From: Mesotaenium endlicherianum
Lineage: Eukaryota
Assembly (NCBI GenBank): GCA_009602735.1
Contig: WELA01002708.1
Location: forward strand, 1 to 64,000
DNA: 64,000 bases
Reading direction: 5' to 3'
A program made the position numbers and the translations under genes. The notes below the pieces were generated by a model. The model worked only from the letters and a program-made list of their open reading frames with translations, did no database searches and was not told the DNA's origin. Position 1 is the first letter of the stretch; the number at the start of each line of letters is the position of its first letter. This document shows positions 28,852-62,604 of this stretch, in pieces.

Positions 28852-28885
28852 TCAATATGACAATCAAAAACTACCAAGGTCCTGG

Positions 28886-29470: not shown

Positions 29471-29575
29471 GCAGATAAATAAAAGTTAATGGATTAAAGA
29501 TAATTATTTTTTTTTGATTAGGACCATGCGGCCTGTTTGATTGTCTTTTTACTGACAATCATTCAACGGATAAAT

Positions 29576-32098: not shown

Positions 32099-32124
32099 TA
32101 TTTCATACAACTAAACCCTGCTTT

Positions 32125-33930: not shown

Positions 33931-34518
33931 ATGATTGCCGAAACGTTTAAATTCCTTAGCGAAGAGCTCAACGGTTACCTATCGCAAAAGCTGGGTGTTA
34001 CTACAGACCAGCGCCTTGTGCTGGGTAATATAGGCAAAGTGTCTGACAACGATACCAGCGGCACCAACACACTTACCGGGAAAGCCATTCTTTCACTGAT
34101 CAATGTAGAAGAAGACCGTATTACCAAGCAACAGGATAATTACCTCAAATCCGATACGCAGGTAACCTATAAGAATCCCCCACTCTATTTGAACCTCTAT
34201 GTGCTGTTCGCCATCAACCGGACCGATTACAGCGATTCACTCAAATGGCTGGCGTATATCATACAGTTTTTCCAACAGCAGCATGTATTCACCCCTGCCA
34301 GCAACCCCAATCTCGACGGCCGTATTCAGAAACTGATCGTTGACCTGTACAACCTCAATTTTGAACAGATCAACCAGTTGTGGAGTGTGATCGGTGGTAA
34401 GTACCTGCCTTCGGTAGTATATAAAATAAGACAGGTAGTGATAGATGAAAATGCCATTGAGTATGAAAGTGGTTTCATACAGGAGATCGATATTTCAATA
34501 CCACAGAACTATAAATAG
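33931..34518 (+). CDS. DUF4255 / Pvc16-Afp16-like cap (tail terminator) protein
   Basis: LINVEED, PPLYLNLYVLF, QLWSVIGGKYLPSVVYK; start at ATG 33931. Confidence 0.85.
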   Translation: MIAETFKFLSEELNGYLSQKLGVTTDQRLVLGNIGKVSDNDTSGTNTLTGKAILSLINVEEDRITKQQDNYLKSDTQVTYKNPPLYLNLYVLFAINRTDYSDSLKWLAYIIQFFQQQHVFTPASNPNLDGRIQKLIVDLYNLNFEQINQLWSVIGGKYLPSVVYKIRQVVIDENAIEYESGFIQEIDISIPQNYK

Positions 34519-34526
34519 CAGCCACT

Positions 34527-35696
34527 ATGTTGCTCAAATACGCCATACTGCTGAAGGTTGAAATGCTGCACGACTATTACAACGATCTGCGGTGTCCCGA
34601 TCTGGATTTTGTACCTAGTCGCGATACGGCTGATGCCCTCAAAGGGCATGATATGCTGTACAAAAGCATTGGCAACAAATTGATCCTGTTGATCAAAACA
34701 GATGATACCGGTAAACCTATTATTGTACCCAATTCCTCATTAAAACTTTGCTTTTATGTCAATATCAACAACGTTCGTTTTGCCAATTATACCAATATCA
34801 ATTTTCATCCTTTCGATGCTACCCGTTTTTATTTCACCAACCTCAACCAAACGAAGGTGGGTACCAGTTTATGTTTAAATACTGCTGTTGCGCAATACAA
34901 CAGTGCCAACAATTACCCTGTTGGCGCTTTGGCAGGCGATGCCATGGGTAATCATTACGAAGCGATCAAATCGAGCAGCAGCAGCAACATCCATGACACA
35001 TCCAACCCTGCTTACTGGCAGCCCAAAGGAACGGCGCAGTACGTGAACAATGGCGATGGTATATCGTTAGCAGGGGATACTTATTTATTTCATGGTACAG
35101 CTAATACCGACTTTACCATCCATATCTATACACTCAACACGGCTACCAGTGCATACGATAATTTACTCACCACCAGTACGATCCACTACCCAACTGCACA
35201 ACCAACTGTCCCGGTTGACCTGAGCCTGCTGAAGAATGGCAAATACAGGATAGAAGTCAATGGCAGCAGCTCATTGGTTTATCATGATAAAGAAGCGATA
35301 CTGCAAAACTGTTTTGGCATGGTGGAACTGTTCAACAACCTGCCGGCTACCAATGATTTTTCCTGGTTCGATGCTACCGGGTTGCCCAAACAATCTACAT
35401 ACAGCATACGTTTCGCCAACCGTTCAGTCATCTGGAAATACATTGCGCGCTCCGGCGATGTAACAGCCATCAAAGACAACGCGTCTGTATACACGTTTAA
35501 CAATGTGCCGGCGAGTACCGTATTTACTTCTTCAGTTCCCATTCCATTCAAAGAGCAGCCATTGAACAGTCTCTTTTTAGAATCGGCCTCCCTGGGAAAT
35601 ATCTCCCCCATTCCCAATCCCCCTACAAACAGGTTAAGCACCATCATACAGGGAAGCGATCATTATTACTGTGCAGAAAAACACCTGAATTACTAA
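34527..35696 (+). CDS. eCIS-associated protein, putative cap adaptor
   Basis: Position between cap and sheath; HDYY...FVPS N-terminus, F.NYT, IRFANRSVIWKY and IPNP motifs. Confidence 0.55.
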   Translation: MLLKYAILLKVEMLHDYYNDLRCPDLDFVPSRDTADALKGHDMLYKSIGNKLILLIKTDDTGKPIIVPNSSLKLCFYVNINNVRFANYTNINFHPFDATRFYFTNLNQTKVGTSLCLNTAVAQYNSANNYPVGALAGDAMGNHYEAIKSSSSSNIHDTSNPAYWQPKGTAQYVNNGDGISLAGDTYLFHGTANTDFTIHIYTLNTATSAYDNLLTTSTIHYPTAQPTVPVDLSLLKNGKYRIEVNGSSSLVYHDKEAILQNCFGMVELFNNLPATNDFSWFDATGLPKQSTYSIRFANRSVIWKYIARSGDVTAIKDNASVYTFNNVPASTVFTSSVPIPFKEQPLNSLFLESASLGNISPIPNPPTNRLSTIIQGSDHYYCAEKHLNY

Positions 35697-35725
35697 TACC
35701 AATACTTCATAAAAACAATTAAAAC

Positions 35726-37189
35726 ATGGCAACATCTTACAAAACACCCGGTGTCTACATAGAAGAGATATCGAAGTTTCCGCCATCCGTAGCGGAAGTT
35801 GAAACGGCCATCCCGGTATTCATTGGTTACACTGAAAAAGCAGGATTGGCTAATGCGCCTTTGCCCACCATTACCATCAATCCCGGTGGCGGCGATGTGG
35901 CAGTGTCGGAGGCAAAACGCATTGAATCATTACTTGAATACATCACTTATTTCGGAACGGGCCCCACGGAACACCTCACCATCAGTATTTCTGAAACGTT
36001 TACCGGCGGAGCGGCTGTTTATTCCAAGCTGGTAAGCAGGTCAATCACTGCTTCGGTAGTTACGCCAAGCATTCATACGATGTACTACCACATGCAATTG
36101 TATTTTACCAATGGTGGTGGCCCTTGCTATATCATCAGTGTAGGCAAAACAACAGAGGGCTCTGTAACCAAGAACAACTTGCTGGCGGGACTGGAGATGG
36201 CCAAACGGTATGATGAACCTACGCTGACCGTTTTCCCGCAAGCTGCCAAATTGAGCACTGCAGATGATGCTTACAATGTATACAGCCAGGCATTGTTACA
36301 GGCTGCTACTTTGCAGGACCGCTTTGTGGTGATGGACTGTTATAATGATGATACAGATACACTGAGGAATGCTGCGAGTTTGACTGATAACCTGAAATAT
36401 GGAGCGGCTTACCACCCTTTCCTGAGATCGGCCGTTAGTTACAAATACAATCTTACCGATGAAAGTAGCTTAACCATAACACTGCAACAGGACTTGAACA
36501 ACGACGGAAATTTCACCGATGCAGGCGAGCCAGCAGTCACTAAAACTTACGCCAGCCTGAATGCAGAACAAAAAACATTGGTAAAAGTGGAGATAGATAA
36601 GCTGGGGGTTGTACTCCCGCCCTGTGCAGCCATGGTTGGCGTATACGCCAATGTAGACAACCTGCGCGGTGTTTGGAAAGCACCTGCAAATGTAGGCTTG
36701 CAAATGGTGAACGGACTTACCAAGCTGGTCAATGCAGTAGACCAGGCAGCATTGAACGTAGATCCTGTTGCAGGCAAATCGATCAATGTGATCAGGGCGT
36801 TCACCGGGAAAGGCATACTGGTATGGGGTGCACGTACCCTGGCCGGTAACGACAATGAATGGCGTTATATCAATGTAAGGCGATTCTGCATCATGGTAGA
36901 GATCAGCAGCAAGCTGGCTTCCGGCACTTTTGTGTTCGAACCCAATGATGCCAATACCTGGGCCAAAGTACAGGGTATGCTGGAGAATTTCCTCACCCTG
37001 CAATGGAGGGCCGGTGCATTACAGGGCGCCAAACCATCCGATGCTTTTTATGTAGCGGTGGGACTGAACAGGACCATGACTGCGCAGGATATACTGGAAG
37101 GCCGTATGATCGTTGAAATAGGTATGGCTGTAGTAAGACCCGCAGAATTCATTATCCTCCGCTTCAGTCAAATGATGGCCAAAAGCTAA
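35726..37189 (+). CDS. Contractile tail sheath protein
   Basis: YKTPGVYIEE, TAIPVFIGYT, RGVWKAPAN, VWGARTL, FVFEPND, VRPAEFI. Confidence 0.96.
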   Translation: MATSYKTPGVYIEEISKFPPSVAEVETAIPVFIGYTEKAGLANAPLPTITINPGGGDVAVSEAKRIESLLEYITYFGTGPTEHLTISISETFTGGAAVYSKLVSRSITASVVTPSIHTMYYHMQLYFTNGGGPCYIISVGKTTEGSVTKNNLLAGLEMAKRYDEPTLTVFPQAAKLSTADDAYNVYSQALLQAATLQDRFVVMDCYNDDTDTLRNAASLTDNLKYGAAYHPFLRSAVSYKYNLTDESSLTITLQQDLNNDGNFTDAGEPAVTKTYASLNAEQKTLVKVEIDKLGVVLPPCAAMVGVYANVDNLRGVWKAPANVGLQMVNGLTKLVNAVDQAALNVDPVAGKSINVIRAFTGKGILVWGARTLAGNDNEWRYINVRRFCIMVEISSKLASGTFVFEPNDANTWAKVQGMLENFLTLQWRAGALQGAKPSDAFYVAVGLNRTMTAQDILEGRMIVEIGMAVVRPAEFIILRFSQMMAKS

Positions 37190-37220
37190 CCCTCATCCAT
37201 AAAATTTAAAAATCAAAACA

Positions 37221-37658
37221 ATGGCAACAGCAAACACATACCCTATACCAAAATTCCATTTCCGTGTAGAATGGGGTGGCTCACGCATCGGCTTTTCGGA
37301 AGCTACGGGACTCGATAAGCAGATCGAAGCCATCGAATACCGGGAAGGTTCCAGTCCTACTTATTCCAAGATCAAAATGCCCGGCCTGCACAAGTTCAGC
37401 AACATCACGCTGAAACGCGGCACGTTCGAGGGTGATAAAGAATATTACAAATGGATCAATACGGTCAACCTCAATAAAGTAGAGCGCCGCGATGTAACCA
37501 TCAGCCTGCTCAACGAGAACCACGACCCTGTTATTACCTGGAAAGTGATCAACGCCTTTCCGGTAAAAATACAGGCAAGCGATCTCAAAGCCGATGGTAA
37601 TGAAGTGGCCATTGAAACCCTGGAACTCGCTCATGAAGGGTTGGATGTGCTGATGTAA
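37221..37658 (+). CDS. Tail tube protein (T4 gp19-like)
   Basis: YPIPKFHFRVEW, IEYREG, ITLKRG, VAIETLELAHEG. Confidence 0.95.
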   Translation: MATANTYPIPKFHFRVEWGGSRIGFSEATGLDKQIEAIEYREGSSPTYSKIKMPGLHKFSNITLKRGTFEGDKEYYKWINTVNLNKVERRDVTISLLNENHDPVITWKVINAFPVKIQASDLKADGNEVAIETLELAHEGLDVLM

Positions 37659-37695
37659 AACAGCGATCATTGTTTAACAGGTAAAAGAACAAGCC

Positions 37696-38148
37696 ATGGC
37701 TGATACATCGGCAGGCGGATATTATCCGCCGGTGGGGTTCCATTTCAAGGTTGAGTTCATTGGCGTTGGTAACGACAACGACACCCGGTTCCAGTCGGTC
37801 AGCGGACTCACCGTTGAATACGACACCGAATCATTCAAAGAAGGTGGCGAGAACCGCTATGAACATAAGTTGCCGGTGCGTACCAAGTACCCCGACCTGT
37901 CATTGAAAAGAGGCATGCTCACCGATTCGGATGTGATCAATTGGTGCATCAAAGCCTTTCGCGACAGGCAGTTCGATCCTGTACAGATCAGCATCATGCT
38001 GCTCAATGAACAACACCAGCCACTTAAAACATGGAATATATTCAATGCATGGCCCAAGAAATGGTCGGTATCGGATTTTAATGCACAGGAAAACACCGTG
38101 GTAGTGGAAACACTGGATCTCTGTTATAGTTATTTCACCGTTCAATAG
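37696..38148 (+). CDS. Second tail tube protein (gp19-like, Afp5-like)
   Basis: YPPVGFHFKV, FQSVSGL, EGGEN, LSLKRG, AWPKKW. Confidence 0.93.
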   Translation: MADTSAGGYYPPVGFHFKVEFIGVGNDNDTRFQSVSGLTVEYDTESFKEGGENRYEHKLPVRTKYPDLSLKRGMLTDSDVINWCIKAFRDRQFDPVQISIMLLNEQHQPLKTWNIFNAWPKKWSVSDFNAQENTVVVETLDLCYSYFTVQ

Positions 38149-38156
38149 TACAGCGC

Positions 38157-38339
38157 ATGCCCATTGAAATAAGAGAACTGATTATCAAAGCAACGGTCAA
38201 CAACCCGAATCCACAGGCAGAGGAAACGGTTCAACCACCGGCTGCACAAGGTGGCGGGGCAAAAACAGACCTGGACGGTATCGTGTCGCAATGTGTGGAA
38301 CAAGTGCTCGACATCATACAGAACAAGAAAGAAAGATAA
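38157..38339 (+). CDS. Small eCIS protein (DUF5908 / Afp6-like)
   Basis: MPIEIRELIIK ... CVEQVLDII...KER; position between tube and hub genes. Confidence 0.75.
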   Translation: MPIEIRELIIKATVNNPNPQAEETVQPPAAQGGGAKTDLDGIVSQCVEQVLDIIQNKKER

Positions 38340-38343
38340 CAAC

Positions 38344-39027
38344 ATGCTCGAAAAAGTTCAGATCATAGCGTACAATAACCAGGATTATGCAGATAGTCAC
38401 AAAGTGAATGATCCGGGCAATCCTTTTAAAGCCATGATCAATCCGGAGAATTATTCGCTGGATTATAAAGTGGAGTTTACGGAAGGACAAGGACATGGTA
38501 CGAGTACAGCACACCAGCGTTTCAATTTCAAGAAGCCGGAAGAAATGTCTTTCGAATTCCTGTTCGATTGCACCGGTATCATCGATAATAATCCAAAAGA
38601 GAGTATACACGATGATGTGGAAGCATTCAAAAAACTCCTGCTGGAATACGACAGCGATTCGCATGAGCCCAGGTTCTTCAAAGTGATATGGGGTACTTTT
38701 ATATTCAAAGGACGTTGTACGGCATTGACCATCAATTTCAAATTATTCAATTCTAATGGATCACCCATTCGCGCCGTATGCAAGACCACATTCAAAGGCA
38801 GTATCGATGAGCAGTTGCGCGTGGCAACAGAAAATGCACACTCTCCCGATATCACACATTACCGCGTGGTAAAAAGCGGCGAGACTCTGCCATGGCTGTG
38901 TTACCTGGTTTACGGCGATTCAAAATATTATATGCAGGTAGCCAGGGTGAACAACCTGGTCGATTTCAGGAACCTGCAACAAGGCCAACAATTATTCTTC
39001 CCCCCTATTGATAAAAACAGCGTTTAA
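38344..39027 (+). CDS. Tube initiator / hub protein with C-terminal LysM-like domain (Afp7-like)
   Basis: INPENY, VIWG, G.PIRA, VKSGETLPWLCYLVYGD...VARVNNL; start at ATG 38344. Confidence 0.88.
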   Translation: MLEKVQIIAYNNQDYADSHKVNDPGNPFKAMINPENYSLDYKVEFTEGQGHGTSTAHQRFNFKKPEEMSFEFLFDCTGIIDNNPKESIHDDVEAFKKLLLEYDSDSHEPRFFKVIWGTFIFKGRCTALTINFKLFNSNGSPIRAVCKTTFKGSIDEQLRVATENAHSPDITHYRVVKSGETLPWLCYLVYGDSKYYMQVARVNNLVDFRNLQQGQQLFFPPIDKNSV

Positions 39028-40775
39028 TGCCCAACGAAAGGACCATACCATCTGAAGCATCCAAAAGCGTATGCACATTTACCATCCTCTCGGGCGGCAA
39101 TGCGGTGTCCAGGACTTACCAGGTAATGGCCATCGCAGTTAATAAAGAGATCAACCGCATACCCGTTGCTACCATCATACTGGTAGACGGAGAACCTTCG
39201 AAAGAAACCTTCGCCATCAGTAACACGCCCGATTTTGAACCGGGCAAAGAGATCGAGATCAAGGCCGGTTACCGGAGTGATGAGAAAACGATTTTCAAAG
39301 GCATCGTTATCAAACATGGCATCAAAGTGCGGAAGACGAGTTCGGTATTGGTGATAGAATGCAAAGACAAAGCTGTTAAGATGACTGTGACCAGTAAGAG
39401 TAAATATTTCAAGGACAGCAAAGACAGTGATGTGATGGAACAACTGATCGGCGCACATCAACTGGATAAAGACGTAAGCGCTACCAACCTGCAACATAAA
39501 GAACTGGTACAATACAATACAACCGATTGGGACTTCATCATGTGCCGCGCAGATGCCAATGGTCTTTTATGCATGCCGAATGATGGCAAGATCACCATTG
39601 CCAAACCCAATTTCTCCGGTGATGCCGTACTTACTGTGCAATACGGCGCTACCGTGCACGACCTGGATGCAGAGATCGACGCCCGCTTCCAGTTAAAAGG
39701 TGTGAAAGCAACGGCCTGGGATCCATCGCAACAAAGCCTGGTAGATGGTATAGAAGCCGCAGATGCTGGTGTGCCCCAAGCAGGTAATATCAGCGCCAAC
39801 ACACTTGCAGGTGTTATTGGCGACGATGATTATGTGTTGAAACACAGCGGCAAACTGGTTGACCAGGAGCTGCAACAATGGGCCAATGCCAAACTATTGA
39901 AACACCGCCTGGCTAAAATAAGAGGCAGGGTAAGCACCGATGGTACGGCTGCTGTGCTGCCCGGAAAGATCATCCAGGTCAATGGCGCAGGCGACCGGTT
40001 CAACGGAAAATTATTTGTTACCGGTGTGCGGCATGAAATACAAAAAGGGAACTGGCTCACCACTTTTCAATTTGGTGTAGAGCCCGAATGGTTTGCACAA
40101 ACCTACGATGTGCAACAGCCGATGGCAGGCGCGCTATTGCCTGCCGTACAGGGATTGCAGTTGGGTGTGGTAACCAAACTCGAAAGCGATCCCGACGGAG
40201 AAGACCGGATCATGGTACGCTTGCCATTGATCGATACCGGTGACGATGGAATATGGAGCCGCGTGTGCTCTTTGGATGCAGGCGATAAGCGGGGTATGTT
40301 TTTCCGCCCCGAAATTGGCGATGAAGTGATCGTGGGATTCATCAACAACGATCCGCGCCACTCAGTGATACTGGGTATGTGCAACAGCAGTAAAAAGCCC
40401 GCTCCCCTCCAGGCAAGTGACCAAAATAATGAGAAGGGATATGTATCACGCAGCGCCATGAAAATGATCTTCAACGACGACAAAAAAACAATCAGCATAG
40501 AAACACCCGGCGGAAACAAAGTATTGATATCGGAAGAAAACAAGACCATCAAAATGGAAGACCAGAACGGCAATAAGTTCACCATGGATGAAAACGGCAT
40601 CAAGCTGGAAAGCATCAAAGACCTGACTTTAAAAGCGGCCAACGAATTCCAGGCGCAGGGCCTGAATACGACGGTTAAAAGCGATGCGCAATTGAAAGTG
40701 CAGGGCGGTTCCGGTGCAGAAGTTTCATCGGGCGGCAATACAGCCGTAAAAGGATCCATTGTTCAAATCAACTAA
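39027..40775 (+). CDS. vgrG: VgrG-like spike protein (Afp8-like)
   Basis: VQYNTTDWDF, PEIGDEVIVGF..DPR OB-fold, C-terminal beta-helix. Confidence 0.93.
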   Translation: MPNERTIPSEASKSVCTFTILSGGNAVSRTYQVMAIAVNKEINRIPVATIILVDGEPSKETFAISNTPDFEPGKEIEIKAGYRSDEKTIFKGIVIKHGIKVRKTSSVLVIECKDKAVKMTVTSKSKYFKDSKDSDVMEQLIGAHQLDKDVSATNLQHKELVQYNTTDWDFIMCRADANGLLCMPNDGKITIAKPNFSGDAVLTVQYGATVHDLDAEIDARFQLKGVKATAWDPSQQSLVDGIEAADAGVPQAGNISANTLAGVIGDDDYVLKHSGKLVDQELQQWANAKLLKHRLAKIRGRVSTDGTAAVLPGKIIQVNGAGDRFNGKLFVTGVRHEIQKGNWLTTFQFGVEPEWFAQTYDVQQPMAGALLPAVQGLQLGVVTKLESDPDGEDRIMVRLPLIDTGDDGIWSRVCSLDAGDKRGMFFRPEIGDEVIVGFINNDPRHSVILGMCNSSKKPAPLQASDQNNEKGYVSRSAMKMIFNDDKKTISIETPGGNKVLISEENKTIKMEDQNGNKFTMDENGIKLESIKDLTLKAANEFQAQGLNTTVKSDAQLKVQGGSGAEVSSGGNTAVKGSIVQIN

Positions 40776-40780
40776 AACGA

Positions 40781-41077
40781 ATGATTATGCCAGCAGCAGC
40801 AAAGATTGGAGATATGCATACCTGTCCTATGATGAACGGACCGGTGCCGCATGTAGGCGGACCTGTAACAGGCCCCGGTTGTGCCACAGTGCTCATCGGT
40901 GGCATGCCGGCTGCACGTGTGGGCGACATGCTCACTTGTGTGGGACCACCTGATACGATTGTACAAGGTTCGGCTACGGTAATGATCGGCGGAGCGCCGG
41001 CAGCAAGACAGGGAGATACCACAGCACACGGAGGCGTTATTGTAATGGGTACACCTACTGTGATCATTGGAGGATAA
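40781..41077 (+). CDS. PAAR-domain spike tip protein
   Basis: PAAAK, PAARVGD, PAARQGD repeats with Cys/His residues. Confidence 0.95.
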   Translation: MIMPAAAKIGDMHTCPMMNGPVPHVGGPVTGPGCATVLIGGMPAARVGDMLTCVGPPDTIVQGSATVMIGGAPAARQGDTTAHGGVIVMGTPTVIIGG

Positions 41078-41086
41078 AACAACATT

Positions 41087-41539
41087 ATGGCAACAATTAC
41101 AGCAATCAACGACGATTTCCTGGGCAAAGGATGGAGCTTCCCTCCCAACTTCAACGTAGGCAATGCAGGCGTGGACATGACGGAAAAAATGGAAGACATC
41201 CACAAAAGCCTGGAGATATTACTCACTACCACGATCGGTGAACGCGTGATGGAACCCAAATACGGCTGCAACATGGTGGACCTGTTGTTCGAACCGCTGA
41301 ACACTACAACGGTTACCATCATGAAAGACCGGATACAAACGGCCATACTGTATTTCGAACCGAGGATCGATGCCAAAAACATTGAACTCGATATGGATGA
41401 TAAAATAGAAGGTGTGGTGCTGATCAAAATTGAGTATGTGGTGCGCGCTACAAACTCAAGGTTCAATTTTGTTTACCCCTATTATAAAGACGAAGGAACT
41501 GAATTACAAATGGTGACTACCAACACACAGATAGCCTGA
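41087..41539 (+). CDS. gp25/GPW-like baseplate protein (Afp9-like)
   Basis: FLGKGWSFPP, GERVMEPKYG, FEPRI, NFVYPYY. Confidence 0.93.
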   Translation: MATITAINDDFLGKGWSFPPNFNVGNAGVDMTEKMEDIHKSLEILLTTTIGERVMEPKYGCNMVDLLFEPLNTTTVTIMKDRIQTAILYFEPRIDAKNIELDMDDKIEGVVLIKIEYVVRATNSRFNFVYPYYKDEGTELQMVTTNTQIA

Positions 41540-41545
41540 TAAATT

Positions 41546-45271: not shown

Positions 45272-45274
45272 GAC

Positions 45275-48274: not shown

Positions 48275-48285
48275 ACGAAATAGTT

Positions 48286-52527: not shown

Positions 52528-52529
52528 CC

Positions 52530-54017: not shown

Positions 54018-54034
54018 TAAACTGTGTTGATCGT

Positions 54035-57000
54035 ATGTTCTCAACTGCTGAAAAAACATCAAAGACCGCGTCATCAGCTCCAAAACAAGGAGCTGGCGGT
54101 AGTTTTTTCAGGAAAGCGGAAGCGCTTTCTTTTTTCGGAACACAGGAAACACCTTCATTTTTCAACGGTGGAAGTTTCATACAACCAAAATTATCTGTTA
54201 GCAGTCCGGATGACCCACACGAAAAAGAAGCCGATGCCGTAGCAGACCATGTGATGCGCGCACCCGATACGGCAACACCTCAACTGAAACAGGAAGACAA
54301 CGAAGTACAGCGAAAAACAGCGGCAGACGACGATAAAAAAGAACTGCATCCCAAACTGGAAACACCGGCTATAACAGCCATACAGTGTAAGGAAGAAGAA
54401 GGTACTACTTCCGATGCTGAAGTGATACAAACCGCTTTACTGCAAAGACACGGCCGCGCACCGCCAACTCCCGTAACAGGTTTTGAACAACAACTGACCC
54501 ACTCCAAAGGAGGAGGCAGCGCTTTGCCCGGCTCTACCCGCCAGTTCATGGAAACCAGGTTTGGCGCCGACTTCGGCGGAGTACGCATTCATACCGGCGC
54601 CGTAGCAGAATCGCTGAGCAGTAATATACAGGCACAGGCATTCACACACGGTAACGATATTTATTTCAATGCCGGCAAATATGCACCCGATACAGGGGCA
54701 GGCGGTTTATTGCTTGCCCATGAATTAACGCATACCATCCAACAAGGCGCCAGCAAATCCGTTGCATCCAACACGCATCCTGTTGCGCGCAAACCCATCT
54801 TACAACGAACAGCGTCTGACCGGCCTGTTCCTTCACAATTGAATAATGCCGTAGCCAAAGCCAAATCGGAAGTAGGTAAAGTGAATGCCGATAAAGAAGG
54901 GGCTGATGGATACCGTACCGGTTGGGAAAGACTGGTAGAATATTTCAAAACAACATTGGGCGCCGATAAAGTATTGCCGCAAGGCGCTGCCATGGTGCAG
55001 GGTGCCGTTGCGGAACAGGATATAAAGAAACAAAGAAGGGTTAATGGACTGCCGCCCGCTAATCCACGCCCCGCAAGCGGACCTTATCAAAGAGATGCTA
55101 TGCCCAGTTGGTGTGGCATATTTGTGTTCTGGTCGCTCCACAAAGGCGGCGTGCCCCTGAATCCCTGGATACTGGGTGGCCATAATATAGACCTGAATGC
55201 CGCCTACCCTCCAGGCTACCACCCGAAAGCCGGTGATATTGCCTATCGGAATGCATTCTCGCATTATGCCATTGTTGAAAAATCAAACGGCGATACTGTT
55301 ACAACGGTTAACGGCAATACGGCCGGTGAAGATAATCTTGGCGGGCAGGTACAGGTAAAAGATCATCCCCTTGCCAATTGGACAGGCTTCTTCGATCCAT
55401 TGATGATGAAGAACGGAGAATTGGGTGCAGGTGAACAGGCCGCAGAAAGCAAACCCAAAACATTGCGCGAACTGCGACAGGAATTATTCCATGTAAACAG
55501 GAAAATGCAGGACGGCCCCGAGCCTGAACAAGAGATGACCGAAGAAGTACACCTGCAAGCCAAACAGGAACCGCTGAGTAGCTGGCAGGTGAACGAGAGT
55601 GGCCGGTTAACACATGCGCCACCTGTGGTTCAACCTGCCGCTGTGCAGGCGAAAGAAGAACCGGTGCAACAGAAAGACGAAGAGCACAAAGAGGAAGAAG
55701 AAAAACACGCGCCGGTACCGGTACAATTGAAAACAGCTGAACCCAAAGTGCAGCGCTCCTGGTTGAGTGATGCATGGTCTACCGTGTCAAATGCCGTGGG
55801 CGATCTTGTATCGCAGGGACTCGAAGCCGGTAAACGCATCCTGTTAAGAGAGGCACGCGATTTTGCAATGGCCATACCGGGTTATCGTGCATTGCGGGTG
55901 GTATTGGGTGAAGATCCCATCACCAATGAAGTAGTAGAAAGGAACGGCCATAATTTCATAGAAGCGGCATTCGACATTATGCCGGGTGGCCGGTTATTGC
56001 ACCAGAAGCTCGAAGAGTTGGGTGCACTCACCGATGCGGAAGCATGGGTAGATCAGCAGATAGCCAACCTCGTATCTGTTGTACACCGCATTGTTACCAG
56101 TATTGAAAACTTCTGGTCAAGCTTGTCATTGGACGACCTGGGCAGTCCGCAACGCGTATTTGAACGCATTGGCAATATTATCCACGACACTATCAGCAGC
56201 ATTGTGCGTTTTGCCGAGAACGCCGCAAGCGAATTACTTTCTATTGTCAAGCGCTTCCTGTTGAACCAACTGGTTTCCTTTGTACGCAATCATACAACAG
56301 CCTACCCCTTGCTCTGTGTGATACTGGGTGAAGACCCCATCACACACCAGCAGGTAGCGAAGAATGGAACGAATATCCTCAATGCATTACTGGAACTGGG
56401 TGGCGAAGAAGGAAGAGAGCAAAGGCGGCAGATGCAGGATACCGGCACTTTCCAACGGATCGCAGCATGGATCGATCGCGGCATAACGGTATTCAGTAAT
56501 GCATATGAACAGATACGGGCAGGTATTGCATCGATCTGGGATTTTGTGTCCATCGAAAGCCTCATGCATCCCATCGATACCTTCAATCGTATCTACAACA
56601 TATTCGCACCGCCGATACAACAGGTATGGAATTTCGTGCGCGATACAGCAGTGGTGATATTGCGTTTCATCAAAGAAGTATTGCTGCGCAGGTTGTCGAA
56701 CTGGGCAAGAACAGTGCGCGGATACCAGTTACTCACCGTGATCATTGGCAAAGATCCGTTCACCGATGAAGTCGTTCCGCGCACGATGGAAAACATCATC
56801 CGTGGCTTCATGAGCCTGATGGAAGGCGGACTGGAACAGTTCAACCAGTTGAAAGAATCAGGCGCTATCGACAGAACCACACAACGCATCAATGCGGCGG
56901 TTGACCGGCTCAACATGACGCCTGCCGGAATTGTACAACTGTTCATCAATCTCTGGCATTCCATGAGCCTGAACGATCTCATTCACCCGATCGATGCTTT

Positions 57001-59152
57001 CAGGCGCATCGTGGCTACATTCGGCGAGCCCATCGGCCGGCTCATTGCCTTTGTGGTAGAGATCGTCAAAATTGTTGTGGAAGTGATCCTGCAGGTGATG
57101 AACTTCCCCACCGATCTCATCAGCAATATCATCACCAAAGCCATGCAGGCTTTTGAAATGATCAAGCGCGATCCGGTAGGGTTCCTCAAAAACCTGCTGC
57201 GCGCCATCAAGGAAGGATTCACACAGTTCTTCAATAATATTCTCAGGCATTTGCTCAACGGACTCACGGGCTGGTTGATGAGCGAGTTACGTGACGCGAA
57301 TGTGCCCGCGCCGCAAGACTTCTCCCTGCGGGGCATCATCAGTTGGGTATTGCAGGTATTGGGATTGAGCATGGAAACCATCTGGCAGAAATTATCGGAA
57401 CATCCGCGGATAGGACCACAACGTGTAGCGCGCATACGCAGCATGATCAATACGCTGGAAGGCATCTGGACTTTCATCAGAGATGTACAGGAAAGAGGTA
57501 TTGTTGCCATCTGGGATAAGATACAGGAGCAATTGAGTAACCTGTGGAATACCATATTGGATGCTGTGAAGAATTGGATCATGGAGCAGATCGTAAACCG
57601 TGTGGTAGCCAGGTTGCTGAGTATGCTGGACCCTACGGGTATCATGGCCGTGATCAACAGCGCGATTGCTTTGTACAGAGCTGTACAATCCTTCATCCGT
57701 TACCTGCGAGAAATGCTTACAGTGGTGAATTCATTCGTAGAAGGCGTAGTGGAAATAGCGAGTGGCAATACAAGGCGTGCGGCAGACTTCCTGGAAAACA
57801 GTCTCGACAGGGCCATGCCCATCGTCATAGGCTTCCTTGCTAACCAAGTGGGCTTAAGTGGTGTGGGACGCCGCATTGCTGAACTCATAGGCGCTGCAAG
57901 ACAATTGGTTGACAGGGCTGTGACCTGGTTGGTGAACCGGGCTGTGGATACAGGCTTCGCTTTATTCGACCGGTTGATGGCTGCGGGAAGAAGTGCGGTA
58001 GCAGCAGTGCTTGATTGGTTGGGATTCAGGGAAAGATTTGCTACGGATAATGGAACAAATCATACCATATATATAAGAGATTCCGGGCAAGCACCAACAC
58101 TGATTATTGAAAGTTCTCCTGTGGACGTTGCTACATTCTTTAACCAACAGGAAGCGGCTATTACTGCGTCATCAACTATGACTACCACAGATAAGAATAC
58201 TAAACTAGGAAAGATCACACATGGAAGGAATTTACTCCAAGGATTGCAAACATTAATGAATAGCGCCAAAGCTGCAAACAACTCAAATCCGAGGATTCCG
58301 CAAATGATTGTAGAAATCATTGGCGTTATAAAGGAAATTGAACCAGGTGGTACACAAGAAATGGTTCCCGCTGCCGAATTCAATCCCGGATTCTTAAATG
58401 CTAAAGCCAGTTCATTTTCTGCAAGATATGTTTACAGAGGTGGTACAACAGCTGCTGGGGTTGCCATACCTAAAAACCATGCTGATGGAACCGAACCATC
58501 GGATGCGAATTTGGTAGATGCATGGAGGATATTAACAGGATTGCAGTTAAGTAGTAGGTGGGTAAGGTTCCATATACTGAACAGAGAAGTAGGTGGTATT
58601 GCCGCCGACTCTAATTTAATTCCTACACCTACTTTGATCAACAATGAGTACAAGGATGCTTTGGAAACCGATTTGAAAGGATATTACAATTCGGGCCTGC
58701 CCGTTTGGCTACGGGCTTCGATAACTTACAGGCCTATTTATAATTCTTTGTTCCCGAATAGATATTCAGCACAAGCCGGGGCAATGAAATATCAAAATAA
58801 TCAATGGGTTGAGGACCCTACCAAACAAAAAACGTTTAATGTTAGTATTGACCCGCCTGAAAATGCAGGCTTTAATATTAATCTGGTCTTAACTGATGCT
58901 GATGCCCAGTATTTCATTGTAAATATGTCGACTGTAACAAGAGATATGATTGATGTTTTAAGAGCAAGAAGGCCAGCAAGCGGTTATACATATTATCGTC
59001 AAATGGAAAGAGCACTTGCATCCGAAGTTTTTGGAACTGACGTTCTATCTTTTGATCCGGAAGTTATTAGTGCGCTGAGTCCTACCCAGGCACAATCGAA
59101 CAGAATAAATGCATATAGAAGAGGATTGTCAAGTGTAAATTGGATTTTCTAA
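54035..59152 (+). CDS. DUF4157 multidomain cargo/effector: CHAP-like amidase, helical repeats and a nuclease-like C-terminus
   Basis: FGADFGGVRIHT...AHELTHTIQQ; WCGIFVFW...HYAIV...NGNT; HILNREVGG...NLIP...N. Confidence 0.8.
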   Translation: MFSTAEKTSKTASSAPKQGAGGSFFRKAEALSFFGTQETPSFFNGGSFIQPKLSVSSPDDPHEKEADAVADHVMRAPDTATPQLKQEDNEVQRKTAADDDKKELHPKLETPAITAIQCKEEEGTTSDAEVIQTALLQRHGRAPPTPVTGFEQQLTHSKGGGSALPGSTRQFMETRFGADFGGVRIHTGAVAESLSSNIQAQAFTHGNDIYFNAGKYAPDTGAGGLLLAHELTHTIQQGASKSVASNTHPVARKPILQRTASDRPVPSQLNNAVAKAKSEVGKVNADKEGADGYRTGWERLVEYFKTTLGADKVLPQGAAMVQGAVAEQDIKKQRRVNGLPPANPRPASGPYQRDAMPSWCGIFVFWSLHKGGVPLNPWILGGHNIDLNAAYPPGYHPKAGDIAYRNAFSHYAIVEKSNGDTVTTVNGNTAGEDNLGGQVQVKDHPLANWTGFFDPLMMKNGELGAGEQAAESKPKTLRELRQELFHVNRKMQDGPEPEQEMTEEVHLQAKQEPLSSWQVNESGRLTHAPPVVQPAAVQAKEEPVQQKDEEHKEEEEKHAPVPVQLKTAEPKVQRSWLSDAWSTVSNAVGDLVSQGLEAGKRILLREARDFAMAIPGYRALRVVLGEDPITNEVVERNGHNFIEAAFDIMPGGRLLHQKLEELGALTDAEAWVDQQIANLVSVVHRIVTSIENFWSSLSLDDLGSPQRVFERIGNIIHDTISSIVRFAENAASELLSIVKRFLLNQLVSFVRNHTTAYPLLCVILGEDPITHQQVAKNGTNILNALLELGGEEGREQRRQMQDTGTFQRIAAWIDRGITVFSNAYEQIRAGIASIWDFVSIESLMHPIDTFNRIYNIFAPPIQQVWNFVRDTAVVILRFIKEVLLRRLSNWARTVRGYQLLTVIIGKDPFTDEVVPRTMENIIRGFMSLMEGGLEQFNQLKESGAIDRTTQRINAAVDRLNMTPAGIVQLFINLWHSMSLNDLIHPIDAFRRIVATFGEPIGRLIAFVVEIVKIVVEVILQVMNFPTDLISNIITKAMQAFEMIKRDPVGFLKNLLRAIKEGFTQFFNNILRHLLNGLTGWLMSELRDANVPAPQDFSLRGIISWVLQVLGLSMETIWQKLSEHPRIGPQRVARIRSMINTLEGIWTFIRDVQERGIVAIWDKIQEQLSNLWNTILDAVKNWIMEQIVNRVVARLLSMLDPTGIMAVINSAIALYRAVQSFIRYLREMLTVVNSFVEGVVEIASGNTRRAADFLENSLDRAMPIVIGFLANQVGLSGVGRRIAELIGAARQLVDRAVTWLVNRAVDTGFALFDRLMAAGRSAVAAVLDWLGFRERFATDNGTNHTIYIRDSGQAPTLIIESSPVDVATFFNQQEAAITASSTMTTTDKNTKLGKITHGRNLLQGLQTLMNSAKAANNSNPRIPQMIVEIIGVIKEIEPGGTQEMVPAAEFNPGFLNAKASSFSARYVYRGGTTAAGVAIPKNHADGTEPSDANLVDAWRILTGLQLSSRWVRFHILNREVGGIAADSNLIPTPTLINNEYKDALETDLKGYYNSGLPVWLRASITYRPIYNSLFPNRYSAQAGAMKYQNNQWVEDPTKQKTFNVSIDPPENAGFNINLVLTDADAQYFIVNMSTVTRDMIDVLRARRPASGYTYYRQMERALASEVFGTDVLSFDPEVISALSPTQAQSNRINAYRRGLSSVNWIF

Positions 59153-59167
59153 ATAAATTTTAAATAT

Positions 59168-60367
59168 ATGGCAACCATTTTTAAAAGACGTAGACGCAGA
59201 TCCATCACTGCCAATGAGGGTAAGTTCTTTAAGAAAGAGAATACCCAGGAGCAAAGTTTTTTCAGCGGCGCTGATCATGATGGATTTTTCCAACCACAAC
59301 CGCAAACACAACAAGTACAACGAAAATGTGCTGAATGTGAGAATGAAGAAAAAAAGGCCCAGCGCATGACCGATGATAAGAAAGAAGAGGATAAAACCGT
59401 GCATCGCGAAACGGATAAAAAAGAAGACGACGATAAAAAGTTGCACCGGCAAACTGATGGGGCCGCTACTGCCTCAGGCGGCGCGGCTTCTTATGTCCAT
59501 TCGCTCAATGGCAAAGGTAGCCCGCTCCCTGCTTCTACAAAGCAATTCTTCCAACAAAGGATGGGCGTTGATTTCAGCCAGGTAGCCATTCATACGGAAA
59601 AGGAAGCCTCCGATTCTGCCAAAGCCATCAATGCAAAAGCCTACACAGTGGGCAATCATATCGTATTCAAAGAAGGACAATATGCACCGGATACATACGA
59701 AGGGAAAAAACTGCTCGCACATGAATTAATGCATGTGGTACAGCAGGCAGGAGCCATCATGCGGAAAGTAAATCCGGTAATCCATGAAGACGATGACAAG
59801 ACCGCTTTGAGGTCGGTTTCAGGTAAGGGAACGCTTACCGATAATAAAACCAATAATGGCGCTTCGGCAGATGTGAGCGCACAAACCACCGCCAATTACG
59901 ACCATGGCACTTTTACAACAGCCAATGCTACCAGCAACCGCGCAACAGGTTGTAGTGATTGTGGATCTGCTCCCTGTGCTACGATGAGTGGTGTTATGAT
60001 CTCGGTATTCCATGCGCATCCGGTTATTGCACCACCTGTTATGCCGCCCGGACTCACACCTTGTCAGCAGTTGCGCGTACAACATTTCATCAATAACGTA
60101 TTGATGCCGCACGAAAGACAGCATGTGGCGGCATTCAATACCTACAATGGAACAGTGCGTACACCATTTACGGTAACTGCGTGCCATACAGACCAGGGAT
60201 TGAGCGATGCGCTCCTCCCCTTGCACAACAGTATAGATGCCAGTCGTATTGCTGCCGCCAATGCCCTGAGTGATGCCCTGGATCCTTTCAATACCACAAT
60301 AGACATTGATTGCCAGGAGCCGAAAGCCCCTGCTTCCCCATCACCTAAAAAACAACAGAAGAAATAA
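59168..60367 (+). CDS. Second DUF4157 cargo protein with a C-terminal HExxH domain
   Basis: QRKCAECE, DFSQVAIHT...AHELMHVVQQ, second motif HERQH. Confidence 0.8.
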   Translation: MATIFKRRRRRSITANEGKFFKKENTQEQSFFSGADHDGFFQPQPQTQQVQRKCAECENEEKKAQRMTDDKKEEDKTVHRETDKKEDDDKKLHRQTDGAATASGGAASYVHSLNGKGSPLPASTKQFFQQRMGVDFSQVAIHTEKEASDSAKAINAKAYTVGNHIVFKEGQYAPDTYEGKKLLAHELMHVVQQAGAIMRKVNPVIHEDDDKTALRSVSGKGTLTDNKTNNGASADVSAQTTANYDHGTFTTANATSNRATGCSDCGSAPCATMSGVMISVFHAHPVIAPPVMPPGLTPCQQLRVQHFINNVLMPHERQHVAAFNTYNGTVRTPFTVTACHTDQGLSDALLPLHNSIDASRIAAANALSDALDPFNTTIDIDCQEPKAPASPSPKKQQKK

Positions 60368-60539
60368 TATCTCAGCCTATGAAGCCCATAAAGTCAGCCA
60401 ACTGTTGGAAACCAGTTATTTATGAGCCCGATGAAGTCAGCCAACAATTATTAAAGCGCCGCAACCTAACCCACACATCCGGATCATTGTACATAGCACT
60501 TTAGAACATAATGCAGTATCTTAACGTAAAATACAACCT

Positions 60540-61889
60540 GTGATCTACCAGTTAAACCATAGCAATACGGTCCCATCATTGAGGATTGCGATGGATCATT
60601 GCAAAACCTTGATCGGATTGCGTTTGCAGGCGTATTTCGACAATGGCTCTTTCGACCCGGTTGCCTGGCTCAAAGAACAATATCAAAATGAACCACCGAA
60701 TAAAGGCTGGCTCTCTTTTATCCCCTTGCAGGAATACACCGAATGGATCGTGGTCATGTTAACGTTGGCGCCGCATGTGTATCCTAATTTTTTTGAATCC
60801 CTGATCGTAACACACCTGCCCTCCGGTGGCGATTTTCCTGAATTTGGCGGCGTAAAAGCGGCTAATCATCGAGGCATGTTGCCTACCGGCGAAACGATCC
60901 AGTTCATCATAGCCGGTGATGACGTTGATAAACGGCTGCAACTACAGGAACTTTTCCGTGAAACGCATTTCTTTTACCGCCAGGGCATTTTATGGCTGGA
61001 GCCGGTCAAGGAAGGCGAACCGGTAATGAGCGGGCGAATCGTGTTGCCGCAGGAAAATATAGAACGCATCTTATTCGGTCGTGAGTCGGCACCGCGTTAT
61101 GGACTCGATTTCCCTGCCAAACAAATTATTACGGCCATGGAATGGAACGATGTGGTATTGCATCCGCGCACCATGCAACAGGTAAAAGACATCAGTACCT
61201 GGCTCAATCACCATCACCGGTTTGCTGAAGACAATAATTTGAAAAGAAAGATCAAACCCGGTTACCGCGTACTTTTTTACGGCCCTTCCGGAACGGGTAA
61301 AACATTAACAGCCGCACTGCTGGGTAAAGAGTTCGGCAAAGATGTTTATCGCATCGACCTTTCACAAATTGTAAGTAAATACATTGGTGAAACGGAAAAG
61401 AACCTGGAAGCCGTTTTCAAAAGAGCGGAAAGCAAGGACTGGATATTGTTTTTCGATGAGGCCGATGCACTCTTCGGCAAACGAACCAGTGTACAAAGTT
61501 CGCACGACAAATACGCCAACCAGGAAGTGAGCTATCTCCTGCAACGTGTGGAAGACTATCCCGGCCTGCTCATCCTGGCATCCAACTTCAAGAACAACCT
61601 CGATGAAGCCTTCCTGCGCCGCTTCCACTCCGTGGTACACTTCCCCATGCCCAATACCGCCGAACGGCATCATCTCTGGAAAAAAACAATGCCCGCAGGC
61701 TTGCAACACGATGGCTCTGTGAACCTCCTTGAACTGGCCGACCAATTCGAGCTGACAGGCGCTTCCATCCTGAATGCCGTGCAGTTTGCCACTTTGCAAA
61801 GCTATGCCCGCGGCGATGGTAAATTGTTGCAGTCAGACCTGCTCGAAGGAGTGAAAAAAGAATTCCTCAAAGAAGAGAAGTCTTTTTAA
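60540..61889 (+). CDS. AAA+ ATPase (Afp15/Pvc15-like)
   Basis: GPSGTGKT, DLSQIVSKYIGETEKNL, LFFDEADALFGKRT, YLLQRVE; the start could be 60540 or 60591. Confidence 0.92.
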   Translation: MIYQLNHSNTVPSLRIAMDHCKTLIGLRLQAYFDNGSFDPVAWLKEQYQNEPPNKGWLSFIPLQEYTEWIVVMLTLAPHVYPNFFESLIVTHLPSGGDFPEFGGVKAANHRGMLPTGETIQFIIAGDDVDKRLQLQELFRETHFFYRQGILWLEPVKEGEPVMSGRIVLPQENIERILFGRESAPRYGLDFPAKQIITAMEWNDVVLHPRTMQQVKDISTWLNHHHRFAEDNNLKRKIKPGYRVLFYGPSGTGKTLTAALLGKEFGKDVYRIDLSQIVSKYIGETEKNLEAVFKRAESKDWILFFDEADALFGKRTSVQSSHDKYANQEVSYLLQRVEDYPGLLILASNFKNNLDEAFLRRFHSVVHFPMPNTAERHHLWKKTMPAGLQHDGSVNLLELADQFELTGASILNAVQFATLQSYARGDGKLLQSDLLEGVKKEFLKEEKSF

Positions 61890-62603: not shown

Positions 62604-62604
62604 T

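What the first reader, a model, noticed from the sequence alone, without database searches (positions are those of the whole stretch)
33931..61889. Apparently complete single-sheath extracellular contractile injection system
Seen: 17 tightly packed, co-oriented, uninterrupted ORFs forming a headless contractile tail with tape measure, AAA+ ATPase and two DUF4157 proteins. Established: this gene set defines Afp/PVC/MAC-type eCIS. From memory it most resembles the Bacteroidota AlgoCIS layout (cap plus adaptor, plug, enlarged baseplate, two cargoes). Inference: a functional toxin-delivery particle with unknown target. The class is known; this instance and its payload may be uncharacterised.
Basis: partly seen in the sequence, partly recalled or inferred. 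Interest (0 to 1): 0.8.

Follow-up and report, generated by a model that had tools for sequence, protein, structure and literature searches.

The report
Injection machine with wall-cutting nuclease payload
This bacterium carries an intact 17-gene phage-tail-like injection machine of a known kind, and its large payload protein joins a predicted cell-wall-cutting enzyme to a predicted nucleic-acid-cutting toxin, so it likely attacks other bacteria.

Summary
In detail: 17 intact, co-oriented genes (33931-61889) encode a clade Ib contractile injection system in the AlgoCIS gene order, with an Alg19/Cis19-type fibre and spike cage. It is the genome's only sheath locus and is under purifying selection against a sister genome. 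It lacks both thylakoid anchors of tCIS, so a free particle is the likeliest mode; the gene set alone cannot exclude T6SS-iv. The chassis is a known kind.

The payload is the interesting part. The 1705-aa cargo is a polymorphic toxin: likely loading segment, DUF4157, an inserted CHAP/NlpC-P60 domain (Cys-His-Asn invariant in 120 of 120 homologues; fold closest to peptidoglycan endopeptidases), a conserved helical core with one hydrophobic segment, and a swappable NucA/EsaD-like nuclease. Relatives often carry an immunity-type gene right behind it (33 of 50 nuclease loci); this locus has none.

Best reading (0.55): an antibacterial particle that injects into the periplasm, where the cargo likely cuts the wall and passes its nuclease across the inner membrane. 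That would address how short AlgoCIS-type particles reach the cytoplasm. No activity, expression or target is shown.

The parts
33931..34518 (+). Cap / tail terminator (Alg16A/Pvc16 type), 195 aa
   Evidence: Pvc16_N 4e-36; start as
34527..35696 (+). Cap adaptor (Cis16B/Alg16B type), 389 aa
   Evidence: All3326 1.3e-11, AlgoCIS cap adaptor 4.4e-4
35726..37189 (+). Single sheath, 487 aa (short, tCIS-sized)
   Evidence: All3325 457 bits full length; AlgoCIS sheath (692 aa) 447 bits in two stretches; PVC/Afp 141-213 bits
37221..37658 (+). Inner tube (Alg1 position), 145 aa
   Evidence: Phage_T4_gp19 4.7e-49
37696..38148 (+). Tube / tube initiator (Alg5 position), 150 aa
   Evidence: Phage_T4_gp19 5.8e-46
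38157..38339 (+). Plug (Alg6 position), 60 aa
   Evidence: DUF5908 3.8e-19; role inferred from position
38344..39027 (+). Tube initiator (Alg7 position), 227 aa
   Evidence: CIS_tube 4.2e-51; start
39027..40775 (+). VgrG-like spike, 582 aa
   Evidence: Phage_base_V, Phage_GPD; TIGR01646 3e-73
40781..41077 (+). PAAR spike tip, 98 aa
   Evidence: PAAR_motif 7e-26
41087..41539 (+). gp25-like sheath initiator, 150 aa
   Evidence: GPW_gp25 2.7e-25
41546..45271 (+). Baseplate wedge 11 with spike-cage domain, 1241 aa
   Evidence: All3317 2.8e-142, Alg11 1.9e-141; aligns through Alg11 111-1036, which spans cage domain IV 278-643
45275..48274 (+). Baseplate wedge 12, 999 aa, without the tCIS membrane-contact extension
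   Evidence: Query 722-840 faces All3315 613-1162; extension is 610-1100
48286..52527 (+). Alg19/Cis19-type tail fibre with PKD/Ig domains and a variable tip, 1413 aa
   Evidence: 9wt0 1.1e-72, All3314 2e-70; PKD; shoulder matched in 61 and tip in 22 of 75 loci
52530..54017 (+). Tape measure protein, 495 aa (predicted particle about 113 nm)
   Evidence: CIS_TMP 5e-112; 0.229 nm per residue applied
54035..59152 (+). Large cargo, 1705 aa: polar N-terminal segment, DUF4157, CHAP/NlpC-P60, helical core, nuclease-type C-terminus
54524..54751 (+). DUF4157 (eCIS_core) of the large cargo, residues 164-239, HExxH at 229
   Evidence: Pfam 4.7e-30; motif kept in 120 of 120 homologues
54806..55438 (+). 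CHAP/NlpC-P60 domain, residues 258-468; predicted catalytic Cys360, His410, Asn426
   Evidence: Pfam CHAP 7.5e-5, under the cut-off; model pLDDT 87; CwlO Z 9.0, rmsd 3.5, 118 aligned; triad in 120 of 120 and 30 of 30
55760..58024 (+). Conserved helical core, residues 576-1330, with a hydrophobic segment at 1003-1021; predicted membrane-crossing module
   Evidence: dN/dS 0.014; family mean hydropathy 2.57; PT-TG annotated on many homologues
58373..58804 (+). Predicted beta-beta-alpha-metal nuclease, residues 1447-1590; His1513, Asn1527, Asn1536
   Evidence: Profile built without this protein and its six nearest rows hits at 1.1e-18; 20 of 28 aligned C-termini match PF13930, this one does not; Foldseek best EsaD E 3.5e-3
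59168..60367 (+). Small cargo, 399 aa: DUF4157 plus a C-terminal domain with a second HExxH (Cgo1-like layout)
   Evidence: Pfam 3.4e-31; motifs at 185 and 315; Cgo1 has two such motifs; only weak metallopeptidase/DUF922 hints
60540..61889 (+). AAA+ ATPase (Alg15/Afp15), likely cargo loader, 449 aa
   Evidence: AAA 9e-28; Walker A 248, Walker B 302; Alg15 needed for loading in AlgoCIS

Best explanation
This is an intact AlgoCIS-type contractile injection system whose particles are likely released from the cell and likely kill other bacteria with a cargo predicted to carry both a peptidoglycan hydrolase and a nuclease. Steps. (1) Shown: all structural genes are present, intact and conserved by selection. 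(2) Inferred from AlgoCIS: particles of about 113 nm assemble in the cytoplasm, the ATPase loads both cargoes into the tube through their polar N-termini (the 189-kDa cargo would fill about a quarter of the lumen), and particles leave by lysis. (3) Inferred: the fibre tip binds a narrow set of bacteria and the tube punctures the outer membrane and ends in the periplasm. (4) Predicted from fold and conservation: the CHAP domain cuts peptidoglycan locally, the helical core inserts into the inner membrane, and the nuclease enters the cytoplasm. (5) Inferred: with no immunity gene here, the producer relies on loading the cargo unfolded or on dying at release, and on the fibre not binding kin.
For: Chassis; selection. 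No tCIS anchors: no room for a Cis13 gene (3-nt gap) and no Cis12 extension. No capsid, terminase, prohead protease, VipB or IcmF match in the genome, controls ringing. CHAP: triad in 120 of 120 homologues; the best fold matches (11 chains at Z 8 or more) are NlpC/P60 or CHAP wall hydrolases and a diffocin baseplate chain, while C39-type processing peptidases score Z 5.2 or less. Polymorphic toxin: identity to homologues is 0.50-0.79 per 50-residue block over 601-1300 and falls to 0.05-0.22 after 1350; 50 of 71 loci with a whole C-terminus carry the nuclease type, others a Tox-REase-7 or weak deaminase match. Bacterial target: 33 of those 50 have a tightly coupled unrelated gene right behind, and SMI1/KNR4 (SUKH) matches 4 of 21 such neighbours scanned, 2 over the cut-off. 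A separate PG-binding plus CHAP gene lies in 27 of 62 complete loci. AlgoCIS binds a bacterium and its tube ends in the periplasm; wild-type-length particles failed to deliver Cre to the E. coli cytoplasm.
Against: Nothing is shown at the bench. Pfam CHAP is under its cut-off and Z 8-9 is only slightly above the usual best Z of unmatched models. The nuclease has no Pfam hit of its own and no Foldseek match at E 0.001 or better. This locus has no immunity gene, and no SMI1_KNR4 match in the genome, although His-Asn-Asn is intact (17 of 17 such loci). 45 of 75 related loci have no fused CHAP match (two are cut at the 5' end), so the domain is not needed for this cargo family in general. No lysis gene lies in the locus and no phage lysozyme in the genome. 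AlgoCIS particles killed none of the bacteria tested. The locus sample was drawn partly with a CHAP-motif pattern and is dominated by kin, so its shares are not population shares.
Confidence: 0.55

Rival explanations
1. The CHAP domain works on the producer: the cargo, or the whole system, drives lysis or programmed death of its own cell, releasing the particles or acting internally as the cytoplasmic CIS of Streptomyces does.
For: No lysis gene in the locus, no PG-binding-CHAP homologue and no phage lysozyme in the genome; no immunity gene. Geller et al. suggest toxins may contribute to lysis.
Against: The domain sits behind the predicted loading segment of a tube cargo. 4 of 21 complete loci with the fused domain also keep a separate PG-binding-CHAP gene, so the fused copy does not simply replace an endolysin. 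A full variable-tip fibre is kept.
Confidence: 0.12
2. The papain-like domain is a self-processing peptidase that cuts the cargo to free the nuclease, not a wall enzyme; the target could still be a bacterium.
For: Papain-like domains act as releasing peptidases in some polymorphic toxins. Substrate cannot be read from a fold.
Against: Fold matches rank wall hydrolases (Z 8-9) above C39-type peptidases (Z 5.2 or less). The domain lies about 950 residues before the toxin. In 37 of 40 CHAP-less cargoes measured, DUF4157 joins the core within 14-21 residues.
Confidence: 0.12
3. The particle is aimed at eukaryotic microbes such as grazing protists or fungi, and the nuclease is the effector; the wall enzyme is secondary.
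For: No immunity gene here or in 17 of 50 nuclease loci; Zhang et al. read missing immunity as aim at distant organisms. Non-specific nucleases are not kingdom-specific (established knowledge). PKD/Ig fibres do not name a target.
Against: A wall hydrolase at dN/dS 0.036 has no substrate in eukaryotes. Relatives with the same nuclease family carry SUKH-type genes. AlgoCIS showed no effect on the eukaryotes tested.
Confidence: 0.12
4. The system is anchored to the inner membrane as a T6SS subtype iv and kills on contact.
For: T6SS-iv of Aureispira has a tape measure, a cage and DUF4157 candidates and kills Vibrio; the gene set cannot separate the modes.
Against: The order and the Alg19 fibre match free AlgoCIS. 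No extra gene and no clear transmembrane protein among the structural parts (highest hydropathy window 2.01). The predicted length is 113 nm against 420 nm in Aureispira.
Confidence: 0.07

Closest known systems
AlgoCIS of Algoriphagus machipongonensis (Xu et al. 2022, PMC8894135; preprints 10.1101/2025.10.08.681156 and 10.64898/2026.05.27.728243)
   Same: Gene order 16A-16B-2-1-5-6-7-8-10-9-11-12-19-14-cargoes-15; spike cage; Alg19 fibre with Ig domains and helical tip; two DUF4157 cargoes, the small one with two HExxH motifs; similar operon size (28.0 against 27.3 kb).
   Different: Sheath 487 against 692 aa; cap adaptor 389 against 284 aa; large cargo first and 1705 against 1228 aa; the 289-aa TPR gene behind Cgo2 is absent. 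Whether Cgo2 shares the helical core was not tested (its sequence was not on hand); its size suggests it lacks the CHAP insert (inference).
tCIS of Anabaena PCC 7120 (Weiss et al. 2022, PMC8894136)
   Same: Best PDB match for sheath, cap adaptor and both wedges; Cis19 crown homologue; two DUF4157 genes.
   Different: No Cis13 with its transmembrane helix and no Cis12 extension; the host lineage has no thylakoids (established knowledge).
DUF4157 (PVC-metallopeptidase) polymorphic toxins and eCIS-associated toxins (Zhang et al. 2012, PMC3482391; Geller et al. 2021, PMC8213781)
   Same: N-terminal DUF4157, very long linker, variable C-terminal toxin, often no immunity gene; NlpC/P60 is listed as a PVC toxin domain in Bacteroidetes; EAT10 is a predicted wall hydrolase toxic in the periplasm.
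   Different: Here the wall hydrolase is a constant internal insert in front of the core, in the same chain as a variable nuclease. The passages read do not describe that arrangement.
EsaD of the Staphylococcus aureus T7SS; NucA/EndA nucleases
   Same: Best Foldseek matches of the C-terminal model; His-Asn-Asn pattern.
   Different: Different delivery route; 13% identity; E-value 3.5e-3 only.
Afp / PVC / MACs
   Same: Homologous tube, sheath, spike, wedges, tape measure, ATPase.
   Different: One sheath gene against the Afp2-4 and Pvc2-4 chains; no Afp13-type fibre; cage, plug and cap adaptor present.

Membership tests
Clade Ib contractile injection system | Complete core: tube, sheath, spike, PAAR, gp25, wedges 11 and 12, cap, tape measure, AAA+ ATPase | tested here: met
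Clade Ib contractile injection system | Sheath closer to AlgoCIS/tCIS than to PVC/Afp | tested here: met
   457 and 447 bits against 213 or less for PVC/Afp-type chains; by score, no tree built
Clade Ib contractile injection system | No head or packaging genes | tested here: met
   None in the locus; Terminase_6N, Peptidase_S78 and Phage_capsid not found in the genome, controls ringing; other capsid and terminase families not searched
AlgoCIS-type eCIS | Cap adaptor, plug, spike cage, Alg19 fibre, AlgoCIS gene order | tested here: met
AlgoCIS-type eCIS | Two DUF4157 cargoes with disordered N-termini | tested here: met
   N-termini 17-19% hydrophobic residues against 41% in the core, a composition proxy only
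AlgoCIS-type eCIS | Particles free in the cytoplasm and released by lysis | not testable with these tools
   needs cryo-ET and purification
tCIS (thylakoid-anchored) | Cis13 with transmembrane helix | tested here: not met
   3-nt gap between wedge genes and no unassigned gene in the locus
tCIS (thylakoid-anchored) | Cis12 extension, residues 610-1100 | tested here: not met
   118 residues face 549 residues of All3315
T6SS subtype i | TssB/TssC sheath and TssM membrane complex | tested here: not met
   VipB and IcmF-related not found, controls ringing
T6SS subtype iii | Bacteroidota TssC and TssNOP | tested here: inconclusive
   PF17541 not found but no control rang; TssNOP not searched
T6SS subtype iv | Baseplate anchored to the inner membrane | not testable with these tools
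   no sequence marker known to me; hydropathy scan shows no clear anchor
NlpC/P60-CHAP peptidoglycan hydrolase | Papain-like fold with Cys-His-polar triad | tested here: met
NlpC/P60-CHAP peptidoglycan hydrolase | Cleaves peptidoglycan | not testable with these tools
   needs an enzyme assay
NucA/EndA-type (Endonuclea_NS_2) nuclease | Family profile and fold with catalytic His and metal-binding Asn | tested here: inconclusive
   Own Pfam hit absent, 20 of 28 relatives hit; leave-out profile 1.1e-18; 34 of 35 listed Foldseek rows are EsaD, EXOG/EndoG, NucA/EndA, Sda1-type or ENPP entries but none reaches E 0.001
Polymorphic toxin system | Constant N-terminal part, variable C-terminal toxin | tested here: met
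Polymorphic toxin system | Adjacent immunity gene | tested here: not met
   15-nt gap to the small cargo; candidate present in 33 of 50 related nuclease loci

The most novel reading that the evidence does not exclude
A lineage of Bacteroidota eCIS solves the reach problem of short particles with a self-delivering cargo: one chain is injected into the periplasm, opens the peptidoglycan with its own CHAP domain, crosses the inner membrane through a conserved helical core shared by DUF4157 toxins, and releases a swappable nuclease. The long 'linker' of DUF4157 toxins would then be an inner-membrane translocation module, and these eCIS would be narrow-range bacteriocins, some working without any immunity gene.
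Probability: 0.35. Interest if true: 0.72.

Novelty: new variant of a known kind. Interest (0 to 1): 0.42.

Why it matters
For AlgoCIS, the best-studied relative, no sensitive target was found in the 2022 paper, its tube stops in the periplasm, and native-length particles did not deliver a reporter to the bacterial cytoplasm. This cargo has the parts such a particle would need to finish the route and names residues to mutate, so it makes two open questions testable: whether clade Ib eCIS are antibacterial, and what the long region between DUF4157 and the toxin does. The machine itself adds little beyond a short-sheath, unanchored member between AlgoCIS and tCIS.

Tried and rejected
Prophage or tailocin remnant: rejected, no head genes and strong purifying selection. 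tCIS membership: rejected. Fused and stand-alone CHAP as mutually exclusive alternatives: rejected; of 62 complete loci, 4 have both and 18 neither within the DNA held. A different wall enzyme in the same slot of CHAP-less cargoes: not found; the two inserts of about 240 residues have no Pfam match. Orphan immunity gene: not found with a profile of 21 neighbours or with SMI1_KNR4. Dead nuclease as the reason for missing immunity: not supported, His-Asn-Asn kept in 17 of 17. Small cargo binding the nuclease as a built-in antidote: complex prediction gave no verdict. Expression: no RNA holder listed. Promoter scans: no sigma-70 site and no match to a recalled Bacteroidota promoter motif in the 270-nt leader. 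The two-component pair behind the ATPase: probably not part of the system; it leads into MgtC, a P-type ATPase and OprB, and G171 has other genes there. PDB sequence searches with the large cargo and the CHAP profile gave nothing significant. The VIA search of the nuclease model and the Foldseek search of the CHAP model could not be run, so each model has one structure search. The tree of the core is the quick tree only. Earlier scan findings: none at this place or sequence; two unrelated notes.

Full report
1. Observation. The window holds 17 co-oriented, stop-free ORFs from 33931 to 61889, spaced -1 to 37 nt apart except 172 nt before the ATPase. Pfam, NCBIfam and PDB searches assign every one to a contractile injection system part. 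The genome (4.04 Mb, 100% complete by markers) has one sheath match and two DUF4157 matches over the cut-off, both here. Terminase_6N, prohead protease, Phage_capsid, VipB and IcmF-related families are not found, with controls ringing; the T6SS-iii test was uninformative. GC is 0.463 against 0.450 for the genome. The closest named loci are Sediminibacterium assemblies (cargo 78-86% identical; grouped at SH-aLRT 96 in the quick tree), so the host is inferred to be a Sediminibacterium-like member of Chitinophagaceae.

2. It is maintained. G017 carries the locus at 93.8% nucleotide identity with dN/dS 0-0.23 for 16 genes and 23 synonymous to 3 non-synonymous codon differences in the 17th. In 151 genomes of the genus, 12 have a sheath match; 4 of them are of this close subtype (89% identity or more) and the same 4 carry the CHAP domain strongly, a fifth only weakly. 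G171 has the same cassette between other genes and with a different cargo C-terminus, so the unit runs from cap to ATPase and moves or rearranges as a block (inference). Genome handles and named loci both come from GTDB and can overlap; they are not independent samples.

3. Which kind. The order matches the AlgoCIS supplementary tables gene for gene, except that the large cargo comes first and the 289-aa TPR gene behind Cgo2 is missing. The 1413-aa protein is the Alg19/Cis19 fibre, which binds bacterial surfaces in AlgoCIS. Wedge 11 aligns through the cage domain. Sheath, adaptor and wedges score best or equal-best against tCIS of Anabaena, but both tCIS membrane anchors are absent: there is no Cis13 gene and the Cis12 extension is missing. 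A free particle is therefore the likeliest mode. T6SS-iv uses homologous parts and is excluded only by imaging. The published ratio of 0.229 nm per tape-measure residue gives about 113 nm, and scaling the AlgoCIS tube gives a lumen near 860 cubic nm, against about 230 for the large cargo.

4. The large cargo. A search returned 677 homologues among the 7990 candidates scored; the best 120 were stored. Across them identity stays high to about residue 1300 and collapses after 1350, and Cys360, His410 and Asn426 are invariant. The model of residues 258-468 (pLDDT 87) matches NlpC/P60 and CHAP wall hydrolases best (CwlO Z 9.0, rmsd 3.5, 118 aligned; 11 chains at Z 8 or more), above C39-type peptidases. 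These Z values are moderate and Pfam CHAP is under its cut-off, so the family is well supported and the substrate is inferred. The C-terminal model (pLDDT 85, pTM 0.53) finds EsaD and NucA/EndA/EXOG nucleases with none at E 0.001 or better. The domain has no Pfam hit itself, but 20 of 28 aligned C-termini match Endonuclea_NS_2, and a profile built without it and its six nearest rows hits it at 1.1e-18. Between them lies a 755-residue helical core at dN/dS 0.014 with one conserved hydrophobic segment.

5. Relatives. 75 loci were fetched (the best 80 of 404 confirmed stretches), drawn with one CHAP-motif and one core pattern, so the sample is biased. 71 hold the tape measure, 65 the ATPase and 62 the fibre within the DNA fetched; 30 cargoes carry the fused CHAP, all with the triad. 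It is a discrete insert: 355-468 residues separate DUF4157 from the core in those 30, against 14-21 residues in 37 of the 40 CHAP-less cargoes measured; 5 loci were not measured. In an even draw of 400 other genomes of the class, the core was found in 17 and this CHAP in none, so the fusion marks a sub-lineage. Of 71 loci with a whole C-terminus and downstream DNA, 50 end in this nuclease type and 33 of those have a tightly coupled unrelated gene behind. The largest cluster of such genes (23 loci) includes SMI1/KNR4 matches, a known immunity family of nuclease toxins. Among CHAP-fused nuclease loci only 7 of 20 have it; among the others 26 of 30, two of them cut at the 5' end; this split follows lineage and is no test of a link. 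The window has no such gene and no SUKH match in its genome. A separate PG-binding plus CHAP gene lies in 23 of 39 complete Flavobacteriales loci (my grouping by record title) and 4 of 23 others, and not in this genome.

6. Mechanism. Shown: an intact, selected system and the domain layout. Inferred from AlgoCIS: loading by the ATPase through the N-terminal segment, release by lysis, binding by the fibre and delivery to the periplasm. Predicted here: local wall cutting, membrane crossing through the core, and nuclease killing. The motive is that native-length AlgoCIS did not bring Cre to the E. coli cytoplasm while a 30% longer particle did, which the authors leave open between load and reach. 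Against it: no bench data, no immunity gene, no lysis gene, many relatives without CHAP, and no killing seen with AlgoCIS. Rivals are self-lysis, self-processing, a eukaryotic target and T6SS-iv.

7. What is in print. DUF4157 toxins with long linkers, missing immunity genes, antibacterial activity in E. coli and a periplasm-acting wall hydrolase are described, and NlpC/P60 is listed as a PVC toxin domain in Bacteroidetes. Searches for the combined CHAP-core-nuclease cargo or for a Sediminibacterium system returned no description among the papers listed; most subscription papers are outside the library. Not seen, and possibly bearing on novelty: Supplementary Fig. 15 of Geller et al., Fig. 4 and Additional File 1 of Zhang et al., datasets of Danov et al., bioRxiv supplements, eCIStem and dbeCIS. 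What I read: PMC8894135 passages, section 16 and supplement passages (one search found nothing); 10.1101/2025.10.08.681156 passages and section 7; 10.64898/2026.05.27.728243 passages and sections 8 and 9; PMC8213781 passages and section 12; passages only of PMC8894136, PMC11297309, PMC3482391, PMC7073777, PMC12923769, 10.1101/2024.01.29.577165 and PMC12067865. The Streptomyces cytoplasmic CIS is cited from search listings only.

8. Verdict. The machine is a known kind; the cargo arrangement is a variant that gives a concrete, testable route for antibacterial action. Interest 0.42.

Noticed in passing
L004:12062-12436 (G017) against window 60368-60539: G017 has a 43-bp unit repeated 8.7 times in the spacer between small cargo and ATPase; the window has only a short remnant of it. 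Role unknown.
   Followed up: partly
L049:15575-16396 and 26 further complete loci: A stand-alone PG_binding_1 plus CHAP gene of 250-273 aa sits inside related eCIS operons, before the ATPase or before the cargo; a candidate release endolysin or accessory wall enzyme.
   Followed up: partly
AlgoCIS gene ALPR1_12685: This 289-aa TPR gene lies right behind Cgo2, the slot that immunity-type genes fill in related loci; it may be the immunity gene of Cgo2.
   Followed up: no
window 61911-63972 and L084:2248-7267: A response regulator and sensor kinase follow the ATPase after 21 nt, then MgtC, a P-type cation ATPase and an OprB porin; looks like a magnesium-uptake unit that may be co-transcribed with the system.
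   Followed up: partly
L085:8427-12116, L086:12137-15832, L088:9601-13599: Distant homologues of the helical core occur without a DUF4157 match, one with a nuclease and two SUKH-like genes behind it; the core may serve other delivery routes.
   Followed up: partly
L021:9173-17116, L066:10001-18688: Giant cargoes of 2647 and 2895 aa carry two DUF4157 domains, apparently two cargoes in one chain.
   Followed up: no
L042, L045, L060, L073 cargo C-termini: Alternative toxin ends: three weak AID/APOBEC-like deaminase matches and one Tox-REase-7 over the cut-off, among 16 scanned.
   Followed up: partly
G009:C3, G060, G095, G108, G112, G122, G123, G152, G169: Other genomes of the genus carry a different, more distant CIS subtype (sheath 37-53% identical), two such sheath genes in G060 and G108.
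   Followed up: no
window 27835-33660: Upstream of the system: FecR, an ECF sigma factor, a DUF5686 protein and a 511-aa protein with a choice-of-anchor Q domain; shared with G017, not with G171, so not part of the cassette.
   Followed up: partly
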